A stretch of 4,478 bases of DNA from a virus (Duplodnaviria > Heunggongvirae > Uroviricota > Caudoviricetes): the IMG/VR virus record IMGVR_UViG_2681813227_000017. One strand, 5' to 3'. Every line of letters begins with the position of its first letter. Position 1 is the first letter of the stretch. Both the position numbers and the translations under genes were made by a program. The notes below the pieces were generated by a model that was given only the letters and a program-made list of their open reading frames with translations, was not told the origin of the DNA and ran no database searches. This document shows positions 66-4,110 of this stretch, piece after piece.

Positions 66-1055
66 ATGAAGAAAAAATACGAACTGGTTGTTAAAGAGAT
101 AAATAATTACCCGGATAAGATTGCTGTTACTGTGGCACTTGAAATTGGCGGGCATCCGTCGTTGTTGTTGCCACATGTGGCGATTAGTCTTGACCGTACT
201 GAAGGTGCCACGCTGGAGTTCTACGAAGCTGAGGCGAAAAAACAGGCGAAGCAGTTTTTCATGGATATTGTTGCCGGGTTATGCGAAGGGGATGAACCGT
301 CACCGGAAAAGCGCCCCGTAATTTTAGATGCGCAGGATGTATTGATAACCTACAAAGGAAAGCTACCGGGAAGAATTACTTGTTCTCTGAAGATGCCGCC
401 GTCAACACTGCGGTCAGAAAAAGATGATGTTGAATCGCGTATTGAAAAACTGGAGTGCTATATCGCTGAATTGAAAAAAAGCACCCCAACAAAAAATGAG
501 GTGCTTGCAGCAGACGAAATGAAAGAAGCTATTCCTGATCGCGCGGCGAATCTAAGCTGCGCTTCATGGTTGAAAGAGCATCTTCAGCAGCCTGAAAAAA
601 AACGCCGCGATGAGCAGTTTGCTGCGTTTTACGATTATTGCCGGAAAGTGATGAGCAGAAATCTCGCAGAGTGTTTCAGTATTCATAATGATAATTTCAG
701 TGACCTGGAATGGGAGTGTAACCGGCCATCCTTTGTTGTATCCGGTGATGCTGGGAAAATAACCATCTCAGAAAATGGAAAAGTAACACCGCCATCGCAC
801 CAGCATAGTGAGGAGCTCATTGAATTTGCCATTGATTACCTGAAGAACAATAAAAAGCAGGGGCTGATGAAGTGCATTGGTCGTTGCATGGGATATCTGC
901 AGATAGCTGCTGAGATTGAAGCGCTGGCCAGTGGTGCGGACAAGGATGCAGTTGTGCGGGAGGCTCTTCTTCGTGATTTTGATAATCCGCCCTTTAAAAA
1001 AGTGCCGGCTTACTGGTTTCATCCAGGACTGACTTATCTTAAAGGACGTATATAA
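66..1055 (+). CDS. Hypothetical protein, 329 aa, probably soluble; function unknown. Candidate accessory (moron) gene just upstream of the endolysin.
   Basis: Uninterrupted 990-nt ORF starting at the first in-frame ATG after a stop at 3-5; GGGGAG at 51-56 sits 9 nt upstream as a possible RBS. No N-terminal hydrophobic segment and no motif I recognise (no Walker A, no CxxC pairs). Composition looks more AT-rich than Rz or terminase. Same strand as the lysis genes, 42 nt before the endolysin start. Confidence 0.6.
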   Translation: MKKKYELVVKEINNYPDKIAVTVALEIGGHPSLLLPHVAISLDRTEGATLEFYEAEAKKQAKQFFMDIVAGLCEGDEPSPEKRPVILDAQDVLITYKGKLPGRITCSLKMPPSTLRSEKDDVESRIEKLECYIAELKKSTPTKNEVLAADEMKEAIPDRAANLSCASWLKEHLQQPEKKRRDEQFAAFYDYCRKVMSRNLAECFSIHNDNFSDLEWECNRPSFVVSGDAGKITISENGKVTPPSHQHSEELIEFAIDYLKNNKKQGLMKCIGRCMGYLQIAAEIEALASGADKDAVVREALLRDFDNPPFKKVPAYWFHPGLTYLKGRI

Positions 1056-1097: not shown

Positions 1098-1631
1098 ATG
1101 AACACCAAAATCAAATACGGCCTGTCGGCTGCCGTTCTGGCGCTGATTGCCGCTGGTGCGCCTGCGCCTGACATTCTCGACCAGTTTCTGGATGAAAAGG
1201 AAGGTAACCACACCACGGCATACCGTGATGGTGCGGGGATCTGGACCATCTGCCGTGGTGCCATCATGGTGGATGGTAAACCTGTTGTTCCAGGCATGAA
1301 GTTGTCGAAGGCAAAATGCGCTCAGGTTAACGCCATTGAGCGTAATAAGGCGCTGGCATGGGTGGAGAAAAACATCAAAGTGCCATTGACCGAACCACAG
1401 AAAGCGGGGATTGCGTCATTCTGTCCGTACAACATTGGCCCCGGTAAGTGTTTCCCGTCGACGTTTTATAAACGAATTAATGCAGGCGATCGCAGGGGGG
1501 CGTGTGAGGCGATTCGCTGGTGGATTAAGGACGGTGGCAGAGACTGCCGTATTCGCTCAAACAACTGTTACGGTCAGGTATCCCGTCGCGACCAGGAGAG
1601 TGCGCTGGCGTGCTGGGGAATTGACAGATAA
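1098..1631 (+). CDS. R: SAR-type endolysin (phage lysozyme of the T4-lysozyme / glycoside hydrolase 24 type)
   Basis: The translation has the E-x8-D-x5-T catalytic spacing (EGNHTTAYRDGAGIWT). The N-terminus has a Gly/Ala-rich weakly hydrophobic stretch (YGLSAAVLALIAAGAPAP) followed by Pro, which fits a signal-anchor-release domain better than a cleavable signal peptide. It lies directly upstream of Rz/Rz1. No clear Shine-Dalgarno precedes the ATG. Confidence 0.88.
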   Translation: MNTKIKYGLSAAVLALIAAGAPAPDILDQFLDEKEGNHTTAYRDGAGIWTICRGAIMVDGKPVVPGMKLSKAKCAQVNAIERNKALAWVEKNIKVPLTEPQKAGIASFCPYNIGPGKCFPSTFYKRINAGDRRGACEAIRWWIKDGGRDCRIRSNNCYGQVSRRDQESALACWGIDR

Positions 1632-1725
1632 GCAGAATATTTTGCTGAAAAATGCGGTTTGCTCACACGGACGGATAACACGAAATCCTGCGAACTGACA
1701 AAAACTAAGTGAATAAAAGTAAAAA

Positions 1726-1760
1726 CCCCGTTTGTTGGCTGCAAGCGGGGTTTTGTGTTT
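1726..1760. terminator. Candidate rho-independent terminator hairpin, possibly bidirectional
   Basis: Stem CCCCGTTTG (1726-1734) pairs with CAAGCGGGG (1742-1750): 9 bp with one G-U pair and a 7-nt loop. TTTT follows at 1751-1754 on the + strand and AAAAA precedes at 1721-1725, giving a U-run on the other strand. It sits about 95 nt after the endolysin stop. Confidence 0.5.
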
Positions 1761-1829
1761 CCTGACTCTGGAAAAGTCAAAGGAGAAAGTGTGTTTGATT
1801 TTAGCAAACTGATTCGGGAGATTCGAGTG

Positions 1830-1928
1830 ATGGCTGAAAAATTATCCACCTGGAAGTTCATTCTTATCTGGCTGGTGTTTGTGATTATGGCCTCCGGTTA
1901 TTTCATCGGTCAGATACGCTGGTGGTGA
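1830..1928 (+). CDS. Small single-pass membrane protein, 32 aa (MAEKLSTWKFILIWLVFVIMASGYFIGQIRWW); function unknown
   Basis: Not in the ORF track because it is short. GGGAG at 1816-1820 lies 9 nt upstream of the ATG. Its TGA stop (1926-1928) is one base before the Rz ATG at 1930, suggesting translational coupling. An in-frame GTG at 1791 would give 45 aa. One hydrophobic helix is predicted. Confidence 0.35.
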   Translation: MAEKLSTWKFILIWLVFVIMASGYFIGQIRWW

Positions 1929-1929
1929 A

Positions 1930-2397
1930 ATGAACCGCGTACTGTGCGTGGTCATCATTGCCCTGCTGGTGGCCTGTGGTGCGCTTAGTCTGGGGCTGAA
2001 TCATTACCGTGATAACGCCATAACCTACAAAGAGCAGCGCGATAAAAAAGTCAGTGAGCTGGAGCAGGCAAATGCAACCATTACTGATATGCAGCAGCGC
2101 CAGCGTGATGTTGCTGCACTTGATGCCAGATACTCGAGGGAATTAGCCGATGCGAGAGCTGAAAATGAAACTCTTCGCGCTGACGTTGCCGCTGGTCGTA
2201 AGCGCCTGCGGATCAACGCCACCTGTCCAGGCTCCGTGCGTGAAGCCCCCGCCACCTCCGGCGTGGATAATGCAACCGGCCCCCAACTGGCAGACACCGT
2301 TACACGGGATTATTTCACCCTCAGAGAGCGGCTGATGACGATGCACAAGCAACTGGAAGGGGCACAGGACTATATCCGCACTCAGTGCCTGAAATAA
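1930..2397 (+). CDS. Rz: Rz inner-membrane spanin (i-spanin)
   Basis: 155 aa with an N-terminal signal-anchor segment and a charged coiled-coil-like body. Long stretches match lambda Rz as I remember it (NHYRDNAITYK, ITDMQ.RQRDVAALDA, RDYFTLRERL). A second ORF is embedded in its +1 frame. Confidence 0.92.
   Translation: MNRVLCVVIIALLVACGALSLGLNHYRDNAITYKEQRDKKVSELEQANATITDMQQRQRDVAALDARYSRELADARAENETLRADVAAGRKRLRINATCPGSVREAPATSGVDNATGPQLADTVTRDYFTLRERLMTMHKQLEGAQDYIRTQCLK
2150..2335 (+). CDS. Rz1: Rz1 outer-membrane lipoprotein spanin (o-spanin), fully embedded in Rz in the +1 frame
   Basis: 61 aa with a lipobox (VSAC, Cys20) and a proline-rich mature part (CVKPPPPPAWIMQP...GIISPSE) that matches lambda Rz1 closely by recall. 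The embedded arrangement is the same as in lambda. Confidence 0.9.
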   Translation: MRELKMKLFALTLPLVVSACGSTPPVQAPCVKPPPPPAWIMQPAPNWQTPLHGIISPSESG

Positions 2398-2747
2398 GTT
2401 TTGTTGATGCGCCGTATCGTCGCTGTATTCCCTCATTAACAGAGACCGCAGCCCGACAGGGAGACTCCTCTGCGCGAGTGTGCGGGGATAATCAAAAACG
2501 ATACACACCGGGGTTTACCGCGTTAACGGAGCGCGGCGTTGTCCCCTCATAGTCGCCTGTCCGGTGCGATGGTGGAAGAAGCCGGATGTTTATCACTATT
2601 AATTGATGACACAGAAATGGATTCATTGAATTTCAGCACGTTTTTGTATTCGTGTTATTGAACATCTGTTTATTTTACTTTTAACATATTGATAATAAAA
2701 AGAGCTGTAAATCTTTAGATGAGTCGATTTTGTCCGGGGAAGTTCAA

Positions 2748-2888
2748 ATGGATTTTATGCTGACGGTTTCTGGTGTGGTTATCCTGTCCATTGCTTATAC
2801 TGCAGATAAATATGGCTGCCATTTGTTATCACGTATTGGCGCTTATTGTTCGTTGATGCTGATTTTCTCGTCGCTTTTTTTTGAGTAA
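2748..2888 (+). CDS. Small hydrophobic peptide, 46 aa (MDFMLTVSGVVILSIAYTADKYGCHLLSRIGAYCSLMLIFSSLFFE); candidate small membrane protein
   Basis: Not in the ORF track because it is short. GGGGAAG at 2735-2741 lies about 6 nt upstream of the ATG, with an AT-rich region further upstream. Two hydrophobic segments. A 17-bp AT-rich near-palindrome (2889-2905) follows the stop. The only support is the RBS and hydrophobicity. Confidence 0.3.
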   Translation: MDFMLTVSGVVILSIAYTADKYGCHLLSRIGAYCSLMLIFSSLFFE

Positions 2889-3020
2889 GTTATATTAATT
2901 ATAACAAATAATTTTCTGTGTTATTTTTTCAGGCTATCCCGTCAGAGGGGAAGCCTGTACTGCCGGGGAGCGAATGGAAAACTGATGTGTCCGGTAACTG
3001 CGTGTTCTGTGAACACCATG

Positions 3021-3206
3021 TTACTTAATTATGTAATTCATACCCGAACTCTCTGTTGACAGCCTTCTTCTGCAGGCTTCAATAACCCACGCTGAAAAGT
3101 TTCCTGAACCTTTCAGATCAAGAGCGATGTTAATTTGTTCAATCATCTGGTTTGGAAATCGGATGTTGCGGGTTGTTGTTCTGCGGGTTCTGTTCTTTGA
3201 TGACAT
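3021..3206 (-). CDS. Small ribbon-helix-helix-like DNA-binding protein, 61 aa; resembles DUF3950/YlcI-type proteins found upstream of terminase genes in E. coli prophages (from memory)
   Basis: Minus-strand ORF MSSKNRTRRTTTRNIRFPNQMIEQINIALDLKGSGNFSAWVIEACRRRL..., with a basic N-terminus, a short beta-strand-like segment (NIRFP) and two helices, as in Arc/MetJ/CopG folds. GGGGAA is about 5 nt upstream of the ATG (which is CAT at 3204-3206 on the + strand). It is convergent with the 2748-2888 peptide and divergent from cos/Nu1. Confidence 0.55.
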   Translation of the reverse strand: MSSKNRTRRTTTRNIRFPNQMIEQINIALDLKGSGNFSAWVIEACRRRLSTESSGMNYIIK

Positions 3207-3600: not shown

Positions 3601-4110
3601 GTGGCTACGCAGACTGAAGTTGCCAGGCATTTGAGTCTGACCGATCGCCAGCTTCGCAGATTGCAGAAATTGCCGGGTGCTCCGGTCTCGAATAAGCGAG
3701 GACAACTGGATCTGGATGCCTGGCGTGATTTTTACATATCGTATCTGAGGAGAAGTAAAAACGATGTGCCTGATGGCGATAGCGAAGACGACTATGAAGA
3801 AAAGTTACTCATTGCCAGATGGAAGTTGATCGAAGAACAGGCAATCGCCCAGCAATTAAAAAATCAGGCGTCCGAAGGAAAGCTTATTGACACCGGATTC
3901 TGTATTTTTGCCCTCAGTAAGCTGGCAATGGCGTTATCCAGTACGCTTGATTCCATCCCTTTATCCATGCAGCGACAGTTTCTTGATTTAACACCGCGCC
4001 ATCTTGACCATCTGAAAACCCTTATTGCGAAGGGGGCAAATCAGTGTGCGCGGGCAGGGGATAAATTACCGGATTTACTCGATGAATATATCAGAGCAAC
4101 AACTGAATAA
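3601..4110 (+). CDS. nu1: Terminase small subunit (Nu1-like)
   Basis: 169 aa starting at GTG 3601, the first start after an in-frame TGA at 3595-3597; GAGG lies at 3590-3593. The C-terminal half matches lambda Nu1 by recall (FCIFALSKLA...LSMQRQF...RHLD...LPDLLDEYI versus lambda FCTFVLSRIA...LSVQRRF...RHVD...IPGLLSEYI). The N-terminus has the helix-turn-helix region in a divergent form. Confidence 0.92.
   Translation: MATQTEVARHLSLTDRQLRRLQKLPGAPVSNKRGQLDLDAWRDFYISYLRRSKNDVPDGDSEDDYEEKLLIARWKLIEEQAIAQQLKNQASEGKLIDTGFCIFALSKLAMALSSTLDSIPLSMQRQFLDLTPRHLDHLKTLIAKGANQCARAGDKLPDLLDEYIRATTE

What the first reader, a model, noticed from the sequence alone, without database searches (positions are those of the whole stretch)
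1632..1932. Lysis cassette interrupted between endolysin and Rz by a terminator and a tiny membrane ORF coupled to Rz
In lambda R and Rz are nearly contiguous. Here about 300 nt separate them, holding a strong hairpin with U-runs on both sides (1726-1760) and a 32-aa single-helix ORF (1830-1928) whose stop sits one base before the Rz start. The small protein could be a lysis accessory (for example an antiholin-like or spanin-associated factor), or the terminator may mark a small RNA derived from the endolysin 3' region.
Basis: partly seen in the sequence, partly recalled or inferred. Interest (0 to 1): 0.5.

Follow-up and report, generated by a model that had tools for sequence, protein, structure and literature searches.

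The report
Gated small membrane-protein cassette before Rz
Between the endolysin and spanin genes of this Shiga-toxin-type prophage lies a conserved unit of a terminator hairpin, a ribosome-site-masking stem-loop and a real 45-residue membrane-protein gene; the unit recurs in phages across the Enterobacterales, and its function is unstudied.

Summary
A strong hairpin sits at 1722-1754, with an A-tract before it and a U-tract after it. An open frame ends one base before the Rz start.

It runs 1791-1928, starts at GTG behind AGGAG, and encodes 45 aa. It matches PHROG 6632 and is a PGAP hypothetical protein.

The protein family is small and, wherever an organism is named, enterobacterial. The 3' half of the gene shows ample synonymous change.

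In every copy examined apart from two short forms, a compensatorily varying hairpin (H1) lies about 36-40 nt upstream. A small stem-loop (H2) pairs the U-tail with the Shine-Dalgarno sequence.

Most copies lie between an endolysin and an inner-membrane spanin, across at least five endolysin and three spanin types. Others lie in baseplate operons or beside toxin-antitoxin genes.

The best reading is a tightly gated late accessory membrane protein, probably lysis-related, translationally coupled to Rz. Suppressed synonymous variation in codons 1-20 fits a dual start. It also fits an antisense promoter (TGCTAAAAT) that would give a type I toxin-antitoxin-like arrangement. That promoter is untested.

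No known sRNA matches this region.

The parts
1098..1631 (+). Endolysin R. Phage lysozyme with a Gly/Ala-rich N-terminal segment that looks like a SAR (signal-arrest-release) type.
   Evidence: PF00959 at E = 2.6e-24 and PHROG 7 endolysin. The SAR-like character is read from the sequence and was not tested.
1632..1715 (+). Endolysin 3' untranslated stretch upstream of the hairpin.
   Evidence: megablast finds part or all of 1632-1932 in 2027 of 5426 complete E. coli genomes. Only 871 genomes cover at least 80% of it. The partial hits listed stop at query 129 or 156, that is window 1760 or 1787, just after the hairpin.
1716..1760 (.). H1: a GC-rich hairpin (stem 1722-1754) flanked by an A-tract and a U-tract. 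It has the form of a bidirectional intrinsic terminator.
   Evidence: Terminator scan. Free energy -21.6 kcal/mol, z = -4.35. In 20 diverse homologues 97.7% of cells pair, 8 of 13 pairs change on both sides, and 0 of 500 shuffles reach the observed score. The hairpin core ends about 36-40 nt before the ORF start, with A and T tracts in all variants. There are 12 G.U cells and no A.C cells, so the structure is selected in the plus-strand RNA.
1758..1786 (+). H2: a small stem-loop in which the U-rich tail (UUUCCU, 1758-1763) pairs with the Shine-Dalgarno sequence (AGGAGA, 1781-1786).
   Evidence: Predicted in the window and, with different stem sequences (TGACT/AGTCA, CCTTG/CAAGG, CCTG/CAGG, CGTTA/TAACG, CCTTCTG/CAGAAGG, CCTAT/ATAGG), in nearly all variants, including distant ones. 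It is weak on its own in the window: -7.6 kcal/mol, z = -0.47. The lower stem is 93% paired but shows only one-sided changes.
1791..1928 (+). Small gene encoding 45 aa from a GTG start: MFDFSKLIREIRVMAEKLSTWKFILIWLVFVIMASGYFIGQIRWW. It has an N-terminal charged helix, one transmembrane helix (about residues 22-42) and a C-terminal RWW.
   Evidence: PHROG 6632 at E = 1.4e-29. PGAP WP_000459345.1 and CP-1639 CAH23245.1. 95 database proteins and 52 representatives at 50% identity. 46 distinct nucleotide versions of the ORF; among the 44 full-length (138-nt) versions, codons 22-43 show synonymous diversity of about 0.15-0.7. AlphaFold2 gives helices 4-17 and 20-44 at pLDDT 82. Hydropathy peaks at residues 22-42.
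1830..1928 (+). Possible second product of 32 aa from the internal ATG (Met14), served by the internal GGGAG at 1815-1819.
   Evidence: Met14 is invariant in 44 of 44 versions. Arg9 uses only CGG or AGG and Glu10 only GAG, which keeps GGGAG. Codons 14-20 show almost no synonymous change. Serratia and Dryocola loci encode only this short form. Two loci have lost the upstream GTG. Inferred, not shown.
1798..1806 (-). Predicted extended -10 promoter element (TGCTAAAAT) on the minus strand, lying inside codons 3-6. A weak -35 (TCGAAT) is the reverse complement of 1821-1826.
   Evidence: The reverse complement of codons 3-6 is TTTGCTAAAATC, or a variant that keeps T-12, A-11, T-7 and the TG, in all 46 nucleotide versions. 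The same holds in distant loci L170 (TGCTAGAAT) and GC-rich L173 (TGCTAAGAT). Ser5 is always AGC, Asp3 always GAT, and codon 4 always xTT. Promoter activity was not tested.
1712..1792 (-). Hypothetical antisense RNA of about 80 nt. It would start at the ORF's start codon, be complementary to the Shine-Dalgarno sequence and H2, and end at H1 with a UUUUUACUUUUAUU tail.
   Evidence: Follows from the geometry of the predicted promoter and H1. It folds to -21.9 kcal/mol, z = -3.83. No expression data are available and no Rfam family matches.
1920..1932 (+). Junction UGG UGG UGA A AUG. The small-ORF stop lies 1 nt before the Rz start, and the Trp-Trp-stop codons resemble a Shine-Dalgarno sequence.
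   Evidence: Read from the sequence. The same stop-N-ATG junction occurs in most lysis-cassette copies, including one with a DUF2570/LysB-type spanin. In baseplate copies the gap is 3-7 nt.
1930..2397 (+). Rz i-spanin, with the Rz1 o-spanin embedded at 2150-2335.
   Evidence: PF03245 at E = 4.5e-47 and PF06085 at E = 4.4e-20.

Best explanation
The 300-nt gap is occupied by a self-contained accessory gene cassette. It has three parts.

1. **H1** is an intrinsic-terminator hairpin that functions in the plus-strand RNA.
2. **H2** is a short stem-loop that pairs the terminator's U-tail with the Shine-Dalgarno sequence.
3. **The gene** starts at GTG and encodes a 45-aa single-pass inner-membrane protein. 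It has an N-terminal cytoplasmic helix, one transmembrane helix and a short RWW tail. It probably also has a 32-aa internal-start form.

**Proposed mechanism (inferred).**
- In the lysogen, H1 stops any transcription that leaks out of the holin-endolysin region.
- After induction, Q-modified RNA polymerase reads through H1.
- The small protein is then made at a low level, because its start codon is weak and its ribosome-binding site is masked.
- Ribosomes that finish at UGA reinitiate 1 nt downstream at Rz. The inserted cassette therefore does not uncouple spanin synthesis from the late operon.
- The protein most likely acts in the inner membrane at lysis, as a non-essential modulator working with the holin or spanin machinery.

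**What is shown.** The gene is real and conserved. H1 and H2 are conserved. The gene keeps its position and its tight junction with the next gene.

**What is inferred.** The protein's topology, its expression only by antiterminated transcription, translational coupling to Rz, and a role in lysis.
For: **The gene is real.**
- It has a full-length PHROG match.
- Homologues occur in Escherichia, Salmonella, Citrobacter, Enterobacter, Klebsiella, Yersinia, Edwardsiella, Sodalis, Brenneria, Providencia and others.
- The transmembrane half shows abundant synonymous change while the motifs SKxIRExRxM, LxxW[KR]F and [IV][RK]WW are kept.

**H1.**
- It shows strong covariation and only plus-strand wobble pairs.
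- It lies at a fixed distance upstream in every context.

**H2.** It recurs with at least six different stem sequences, always occluding the Shine-Dalgarno sequence.

**Start codon.** GTG in 41 of 44 full-length (138-nt) versions of the ORF.

**Position.**
- 108 of 160 units lie between a PF00959 lysozyme and Rz.
- Further units lie between Peptidase_M15_4, GH19, GH108 or an unclassified endolysin and Rz, DUF2570/LysC or other spanin candidates.

**Junction.** The downstream gene's ATG lies 1-7 nt after the stop in nearly all copies.

**Dispensable for lysis as such.** The cassette is absent from K-12 Qin and replaced by other inserts in Sakai, 86-24 and EcPF18.
Against: - No experiment bears on expression or function, and no paper mentions the peptide.
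- About 13 of 160 units sit in baseplate operons: after a gp138/GpV-apex protein, or near Baseplate_J and DUF2612.
- One type follows an LPD38 polyvalent protein. Distant members sit beside type II toxin-antitoxin genes upstream of terminase. The link to lysis is therefore a preference, not a rule.
- The sample is dominated by one E. coli Stx-phage type.
- H2 is not significant on its own in the window (z = -0.47).
- Q-dependent read-through is assumed from lambdoid biology, not shown.
- Synonymous-site conservation in codons 1-20 points to an extra nucleotide-level function that this model does not need.
Confidence: 0.45

Rival explanations
1. A type I toxin-antitoxin-like, antisense-regulated module. 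A constitutive extended -10 promoter lies inside codons 3-6 on the minus strand. It would drive an RNA of about 80 nt that starts at the start codon, covers the Shine-Dalgarno sequence and H2, and ends at H1 acting as a minus-strand terminator. This RNA would silence a toxic membrane peptide, and Rz coupled to it, until late transcription overwhelms it. This can coexist with the best explanation.
For: - Synonymous diversity is 0.19 in codons 2-20 against 0.47 in codons 22-43 (Mann-Whitney p = 7e-5).
- The invariant synonymous sites map onto G-14, A-11 and A-8 of TGCTAAAAT and onto T-35 and G-33. Ser5 is always AGC, Asp3 always GAT, codon 4 always xTT, and Arg12 is always the rare CGA, whereas Arg9 and Arg43 vary.
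- The element is kept in distant loci, including a GC-rich one that still uses GAT CTT AGC AAG.
- An A-tract upstream of H1 is conserved in nearly all variants, which gives a minus-strand U-tail.
- The predicted RNA folds well (z = -3.83).
- A non-homologous 60-aa ORF behind the same leader in strain 86-24 has TATACT at the same offset (read by eye).
- Distant members neighbour toxin-antitoxin genes.
- The ORF is small and hydrophobic, with an occluded Shine-Dalgarno sequence.
Against: - There is no expression evidence.
- The -35 element is poor (3 of 6), and the simple promoter scan did not report the site.
- No separate sense promoter for the 'toxin' was found.
- The wobble-pair test shows that H1 is shaped for the plus strand: 12 G.U cells and no A.C cells.
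- The 5' constraint can partly be explained by the internal GGGAG/ATG start, by A/U-rich initiation regions and by a conserved N-terminal helix. That helix is also conserved in distant proteins.
- The short forms lack the region entirely.
Confidence: 0.3
2. A dual-start effector/inhibitor pair, like holin and antiholin. The 45-aa and 32-aa products of one gene would differ by a charged cytoplasmic helix and act antagonistically to tune the timing of a membrane event at lysis.
For: - Met14 is invariant.
- The GGGAG 9 nt upstream is kept through restricted codon choice (CGG or AGG for Arg9, GAG for Glu10).
- An SD-like motif before the internal Met is seen in distant loci L170 and L173.
- Natural short-only forms exist, as do forms that have lost the GTG.
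- H2 masks only the upstream ribosome-binding site.
Against: - The two starts are 13 codons apart, not the 2-3 codons of lambda S or S21.
- There is no evidence that both starts are used.
- Met14 and Glu10 could be conserved for protein structure alone.
Confidence: 0.3
3. A moron expressed for the benefit of the lysogen, for example a small inner-membrane superinfection-exclusion or conversion factor. It would have nothing to do with lysis, and the R-Rz junction would simply be a tolerated insertion site.
For: - The cassette is variably present among close relatives: 871 genomes carry it, against 2027 with any match to the 301-nt query.
- The same junction holds unrelated cargo such as ant.
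- The cassette also occurs in baseplate operons and in accessory islands.
Against: - No promoter is evident between H1 and the ORF, which are only about 36-40 nt apart.
- The terminator lies upstream rather than downstream.
- The start is weak and masked.
- The gene is co-oriented and packed with late genes.
- All of this argues against expression in the repressed prophage.
- There is no PADLOC match.
Confidence: 0.12
4. No gene at all. The hairpin is just the endolysin terminator, possibly releasing a 3'-UTR-derived sRNA, and the ORF is a chance open frame.
For: - The region 1632-1760 travels with R in many E. coli genomes that lack the ORF.
- Several annotations, such as RefSeq TL-2011c, do not call the ORF.
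Against: - The protein family is conserved across genera with synonymous change.
- The frame, the start, the Shine-Dalgarno sequence and the stop are all kept.
- The hairpin accompanies the ORF in places where no endolysin is present.
- No Rfam family matches.
Confidence: 0.03

Closest known systems
PHROG 6632 / GenBank 'putative bacteriophage protein' (CAH23245.1, WP_000459345.1)
   Same: It is the same protein, matched over its full 45 residues.
   Different: The entries carry no function. They say nothing about the hairpins, the internal start or the conserved position.
Lambda S107/S105 and phage 21 S71/S68 dual-start holin/antiholin genes (own knowledge)
   Same: Both are small membrane proteins in a lysis cassette, with two in-frame starts that would give products differing by a charged N-terminal extension.
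   Different: Here the starts are 13 codons apart and there is one transmembrane helix. The window's lysis cassette already has a class II holin gene; only its 3' end lies in the window, at 1-61 (mapped through L004). There is no sequence similarity and use of both starts is unproven.
Type I toxin-antitoxin loci with 5'-overlapping antisense RNA, e.g. symE/SymR (own knowledge)
   Same: There would be a small product under an antisense RNA whose promoter lies in the first codons. That RNA would cover the Shine-Dalgarno sequence and start codon and terminate in the sense 5' leader. The toxin ribosome-binding site is occluded by structure.
   Different: The antisense RNA is only predicted. No dedicated sense promoter exists. 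The gene is embedded in, and coupled to, a phage late operon. Toxicity is unknown.
Colicin operon lysis (kil/BRP) genes preceded by an intrinsic terminator (own knowledge)
   Same: A small lethal envelope protein gene sits downstream of a terminator that limits its expression relative to the upstream genes.
   Different: Colicin lysis proteins are lipoproteins. The protein here has no lipobox, and read-through is presumably by Q antitermination.
Phage Mu gp25 'releasin' and other accessory lysis membrane proteins (PMC9239132)
   Same: A small single-TMD protein sits in a lysis cassette next to a SAR endolysin and spanins.
   Different: No homology was tested or found. The family here also accompanies endolysin families other than this SAR-like lysozyme (M15_4, GH19, GH108).
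Morons of lambdoid phages (Juhala et al. 2000, as cited in PMC4104026), e.g. HK97 gp15
   Same: It is an extra, variably present gene inserted between essential late genes. It encodes a small membrane protein.
   Different: Classical morons carry their own promoter upstream and a terminator downstream, and are expressed from the prophage. Here the terminator is upstream and no promoter is visible.

Membership tests
PHROG 6632 (unknown function) | Significant full-length match to the family HMM | tested here: met
   E = 1.4e-29. Residues 13-57 of the open frame align to profile positions 1-45 of 45.
Intrinsic (Rho-independent) terminator | GC-rich stem-loop followed directly by a U-tract | tested here: met
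   14-pair stem at 1722-1754, followed by UUUUGUGUUU. z = -4.35. The structure is conserved with covariation.
Intrinsic (Rho-independent) terminator | Actually terminates RNA polymerase, and is read through by Q-modified polymerase | not testable with these tools
   Needs Term-seq or in vitro transcription.
Type I toxin-antitoxin system | Small hydrophobic membrane peptide (under about 60 aa) | tested here: met
   45 aa with one transmembrane helix.
Type I toxin-antitoxin system | Antisense sRNA gene with its own promoter and terminator, overlapping the toxin's translation initiation region | tested here: inconclusive
   A conserved minus-strand TGCTAAAAT lies at codons 3-6, with H1 as a possible terminator. 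The -35 is poor, there are no expression data, and there is no Rfam match.
Type I toxin-antitoxin system | Independent promoter for the toxin mRNA | tested here: not met
   No promoter-like site was found between 1632 and 1790 on the plus strand (and inspection). The gene is co-oriented with and packed into late operons.
Type I toxin-antitoxin system | Toxicity of the peptide on overexpression | not testable with these tools
   Needs an experiment.
Dual-start holin/antiholin | Two in-frame start codons, each with a ribosome-binding site, in a small membrane protein of a lysis cassette | tested here: inconclusive
   GTG 1791 behind AGGAG, and ATG 1830 behind GGGAG. Both are conserved. Whether both are used is unknown. 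The spacing of 13 codons is unlike known cases.
Dual-start holin/antiholin | Homology to a holin family | tested here: not met
   No Pfam or NCBIfam hit.
Lambdoid moron | Own promoter upstream and terminator downstream; expressed in the lysogen | tested here: not met
   The terminator is upstream. The next gene's ATG lies 1 nt after the stop, and no promoter was found.
Lambdoid moron | Variable presence among otherwise similar phages, at a junction between conserved genes | tested here: met
   871 genomes carry the whole unit, against 2027 with any match to the query. The same junction holds alternative cargo. It is absent from Qin.
Known sRNA families (Rfam: AgvB, AsxR, Esr41, STnc100, Isr etc.) | Covariance-model match at the locus | tested here: not met
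   Only a sub-threshold rimP-leader (terminator-like) hit at 1698-1787 on the minus strand: 29.9 bits against a gathering score of 47. Nothing at the cassette in 11 related loci.

The most novel reading that the evidence does not exclude
The cassette is an undescribed, portable gene-plus-regulator unit of enterobacterial phages. A membrane-active peptide would be held under three stacked controls: an upstream terminator that needs antitermination, a Shine-Dalgarno-occluding hairpin with a GTG start, and a cis-antisense RNA whose promoter is written into the synonymous sites of the peptide's first codons. Two translational products (45 and 32 aa) would act as an inhibitor/effector pair that times or licenses the spanin step of lysis. 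This would be a type I toxin-antitoxin logic recruited into a phage lysis cassette.
Probability: 0.12. Interest if true: 0.7.

Novelty: new member of a known kind. Interest (0 to 1): 0.45.

Why it matters
**Relevance to Stx phages.** Toxin release from Shiga-toxin prophages depends on the phage lysis cassette. A conserved but unstudied membrane protein sits inside that cassette in 871 of the 5426 complete E. coli genomes searched. It lies directly ahead of, and probably coupled to, the spanin genes, so it could influence the timing of lysis and toxin release.

**Wider interest.** The unit shows how accessory genes can be plugged into a phage late operon. It brings its own insulator (a terminator), its own translational throttle, and a stop/start junction that hands ribosomes to the next gene.

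**If the antisense promoter is real.** It would be a clean example of a regulatory signal encoded in the synonymous sites of a 45-codon gene, and a new type I toxin-antitoxin-like family in phages.

**Annotation.** The gene starts at GTG and is often missed or mis-started by annotation pipelines.

Tried and rejected
1. **Known sRNA.** Rfam scans of the window and of 11 related loci found nothing at the cassette.
2. **Published Hfq-bound sRNAs in EHEC.**
   - I mapped Table S2 of PMC4104026 onto Sakai. EcOnc10, 11 and 12 lie downstream of Rz, not in the R-Rz gap.
   - The three Sakai prophages examined (Sp10, Sp12, Sp15) carry the ant variant, and Sp10 was shown to lack H1, so this dataset cannot test the idea.
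3. **Pas sRNAs** (bioRxiv 10.64898/2026.05.13.724894). PasA and PasC lie between the esterase and holin genes, and PasD lies upstream of the esterase gene; none is in the R-Rz gap.
4. **K-12 Qin small proteins.** I suspected YnfP-S might lie between rrrQ and rzpQ. They do not, and rrrQ and rzpQ overlap.
5. **Peptide in the literature.** No paper contains the peptide or WP_000459345. Salmonella locus tags gave nothing useful.
6. **Defence system.** No PADLOC hit.
7. **Minus-strand promoter at 1913-1884.** The scan reported it, but its -10 is not conserved in homologues, so I dropped it.
8. **Plus-strand promoter** between the R stop and H1, or overlapping H1. No convincing match by inspection.
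9. **Long-range alternative sense fold.** A fold pairing the U-tail with the internal GGGAG appears in the window, but the pairing partners are not conserved in other variants.
10. **Minus-strand 95-aa ORF at 1574-1861.** It is annotated in CP-1639 but overlaps the hairpin and the conserved plus-strand gene. I treated it as spurious and did not test it further.
11. **Query limits.** A smaller alignment worked.
Full report
**What the window is.** The 4.5-kb window is the late region of a Stx-type lambdoid prophage of E. coli.
- The stretch 1600-1960 is 98-99% identical to phages CP-1639, H-19B, TL-2011c and many Stx1a-, Stx2a- and Stx2c-converting phages.
- Gene order is as follows:
  - the 3' end of a class II holin (1-61, by mapping to DEC9B);
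  - a 329-aa ORF with an N-terminal YdfR/DUF1327 domain (66-1055);
  - lysozyme R (1098-1631, PF00959);
  - the gap under study;
  - Rz (1930-2397, PF03245) with embedded Rz1 (2150-2335, PF06085);
  - a YlcI/YnfO gene on the minus strand (3021-3206);
  - Nu1-type small terminase (3601-4110), followed by the start of the large terminase.

**Check of the observation.**
- The hairpin stem spans 1722-1754 (14 pairs). It folds at -21.6 kcal/mol, z = -4.35 against dinucleotide shuffles.
- An A-tract precedes it and a U-rich tail follows, so it has terminator form on both strands.
- The open frame ends with TGA at 1926-1928, and the Rz ATG is at 1930.
- One correction is needed. The gene starts at GTG 1791, five bases after AGGAG, and encodes 45 residues.
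  - The 45-position PHROG 6632 profile matches exactly that product (E = 1.4e-29).
  - GenBank (CP-1639) and PGAP (WP_000459345.1) annotate the same 138-nt gene.

**Is the ORF a gene? Yes.**
- Word-indexed searches found 35, then 95, database proteins. Every one that carries an organism name is from Enterobacterales.
- An exhaustive HMM search of 1.84 billion representatives found only 52 at E <= 0.001. The family is real but small.
- DNA loci came from Citrobacter, Edwardsiella, Yersinia, Izhakiella, Sodalis, Brenneria, Symbiopectobacterium, Providencia, Trabulsiella, Serratia and Dryocola. Viral contigs brought the total to 160 units and 46 distinct nucleotide versions.
- Among the 44 full-length (138-nt) versions, synonymous diversity in codons 22-43 is about 0.15-0.7 (mean 0.47) while the protein is maintained.
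- Distant members keep the motifs SKxIRExRxM, LxxW[KR]F and [IV][RK]WW.
- Hydropathy and AlphaFold2 (pLDDT 82) give an N-terminal charged helix (residues 4-17) and one long hydrophobic helix (20-44).
- A topology with the N-terminus in the cytoplasm is inferred from the charge distribution only.

**The hairpin belongs to the gene, not only to the endolysin.**
- In E. coli the segment 1632-1760 travels with R. 2027 of 5426 genomes have a match, but only 871 have the full unit, and many matches break just after the hairpin.
- Yet every full-length homologue examined, including those not preceded by an endolysin, has a hairpin of the same design about 36-40 nt upstream of its start. The design is an A-tract, a GC stem and a U-tract.
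- On an alignment of 20 diverse versions, 97.7% of cells in the 13 H1 pairs are paired. Eight pairs show changes on both sides, and no shuffle of 500 reaches the observed covariation.
- All wobble pairs are G.U in the plus-strand sense (12 cells), and none is A.C. The structure is therefore selected in the plus-strand RNA.
- Between H1 and the start there is always a second small stem-loop (H2). In the window its lower stem pairs the U-rich tail with the Shine-Dalgarno sequence (UUUCCU 1758-1763 with AGGAGA 1781-1786).
- H2's upper stem has at least six different sequences in different lineages.
- H2 is weak on its own in the window (z = -0.47), and its lower stem shows only one-sided changes. 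Its support is recurrence, not energy.

**Where the cassette sits.**
- Of 160 units, 108 lie between a PF00959 lysozyme and Rz.
- Others lie between a Peptidase_M15_4, GH19, GH108 or unclassified endolysin and Rz, a DUF2570/LysC pair or other spanin candidates.
- In these copies the stop is usually 1 nt before the next ATG.
- About 13 units lie in baseplate operons: after a gp138-N/GpV-apex protein, or near Baseplate_J and DUF2612.
- Some follow an LPD38 polyvalent protein.
- Three distant members lie next to type II toxin-antitoxin genes upstream of terminase or head-morphogenesis genes, where a flank was visible.
- Even in these copies the next gene usually starts 3-7 nt after the stop.
- The R-Rz junction itself is a variable site.
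  - K-12 Qin has R and Rz overlapping.
  - Sakai Sp10, Sp12 and Sp15 carry ant plus a 48-aa TM ORF.
  - Strain 86-24 carries H1-H2 followed by two other small TM ORFs.
  - EcPF18 carries four small TM ORFs in a row, the last ending IRWW-stop one base before Rz.

**A second layer of information in the first 20 codons.**
- Synonymous diversity is 0.19 in codons 2-20 against 0.47 in codons 22-43 (p = 7e-5).
- Part of this fits a second start.
  - Met14 is invariant.
  - Arg9 is only CGG or AGG and Glu10 is only GAG, which preserves GGGAG nine bases upstream.
  - Serratia and Dryocola encode only the 32-aa form, and two loci have lost the GTG.
- Part of it does not fit a second start. Ser5 is always AGC, Asp3 always GAT, codon 4 always xTT, and Arg12 is always the rare CGA.
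- On the minus strand these sites are G-14, A-11, A-8, T-35 and G-33 of an extended -10 promoter (TGCTAAAAT). Its transcript would begin at the start codon, cover the Shine-Dalgarno sequence and H2, and end at H1, giving about 80 nt (z = -3.83).
- The element persists in distant loci, including a GC-rich one that still uses GAT CTT AGC AAG.
- This resembles symE/SymR-type type I toxin-antitoxin loci (my own knowledge). It remains a prediction.
  - The -35 is poor.
  - The simple scan did not call the site.
  - H1 is tuned to the plus strand.
  - I found no expression data.

**Literature and databases.**
- No paper in the searchable library contains the peptide.
- Rfam has nothing at the cassette.
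- PADLOC, Pfam and NCBIfam have nothing for the protein.
- The Sakai Hfq-CRAC list (PMC4104026) has no entry in the R-Rz gap, but the three Sakai prophages examined carry the ant variant, and Sp10 was shown to lack H1.

**Verdict.**
It is a portable three-part cassette of terminator, ribosome-site mask and a GTG-start 45-aa membrane-protein gene. It lies preferentially between endolysin and spanin and is packed against the next gene.
- I commit to a gated, late-expressed accessory membrane protein with a probable role at lysis, at confidence 0.45.
- The antisense-RNA and dual-start ideas are compatible refinements, each at about 0.3.
- The reading 'chance ORF plus endolysin terminator' is essentially excluded.
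- The protein is already catalogued as a hypothetical family, so this is a new member of a known kind rather than a new kind of system. Its regulatory architecture has not been described in anything I could search.

Noticed in passing
window 2371-2580 (peak equivalent about 2471-2519, minus strand): This stretch, just downstream of Rz, is 95% identical to the Sakai Sp10 region holding EcOnc11. EcOnc11 is a strong Hfq-CRAC peak on the strand antisense to the late operon (PMC4104026, Table S2). EcOnc12 (Sp9) and EcOnc10 (Sp12) appear to be its counterparts in those prophages, judged from their position only. An uncharacterised Hfq-bound RNA is therefore probably encoded here.
   Followed up: partly
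window 66-1055: A 329-aa ORF lies between the holin and the endolysin. Only its first 100 residues match YdfR/DUF1327, and the usual YdfR protein at this position is about 114 aa. The rest matches PHROG 1085 and others of unknown function. In strain DEC9B PGAP marks the equivalent gene as a partial pseudogene.
   Followed up: partly
window 2730-2888: Another small hydrophobic ORF (52 aa as listed). PGAP annotates a 45-aa version, WP_000347012.1, at the equivalent place in DEC9B. It lies in the AT-rich region between Rz and the YlcI/YnfO gene and has no family match.
   Followed up: no
L005 2656-2982; L006 about 2660-3141; L099 about 2680-3111; Sakai ECs_1966 / ECs_5741 / ECs_5732: At least three other families of small single-helix ORFs occupy the same R-Rz junction. 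Examples are ...TDDVSRALAFAIKWVAVGIAVSPMLYGLAKLVIALKS, MSDKLITLAKILCVIVGISF..., and the 28-aa MSAELIRAMAFAIRIVAIAVLVWAIRWW. They form tightly packed arrays of 2-4. At least two of them also appear with the 45-aa family in a baseplate operon (Dryocola).
   Followed up: partly
L005 about 2620-2700 (strain 86-24): The same H1-H2 leader precedes a non-homologous 60-aa ORF. That ORF has a TATACT -10-like hexamer on the minus strand at the same offset from its start codon as TAAAAT in the 45-aa gene. The leader, and perhaps an antisense promoter position, may therefore be modular.
   Followed up: no
L170, L171, L172, L173: Distant members of the family (44-49 aa) sit as isolated genes beside type II toxin-antitoxin genes (ParE/RelB, YafQ, HicB, BrnT, PrlF/YhaV). 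Where a flank was visible (L170-L172), terminase or head-morphogenesis genes lie downstream. They still carry H1 and H2.
   Followed up: partly
window 1920-1928: The conserved C-terminal Trp-Trp-stop (UGGUGGUGA) resembles a Shine-Dalgarno sequence at the right distance from the next gene's ATG. The invariant WW may be partly a nucleotide-level constraint.
   Followed up: no
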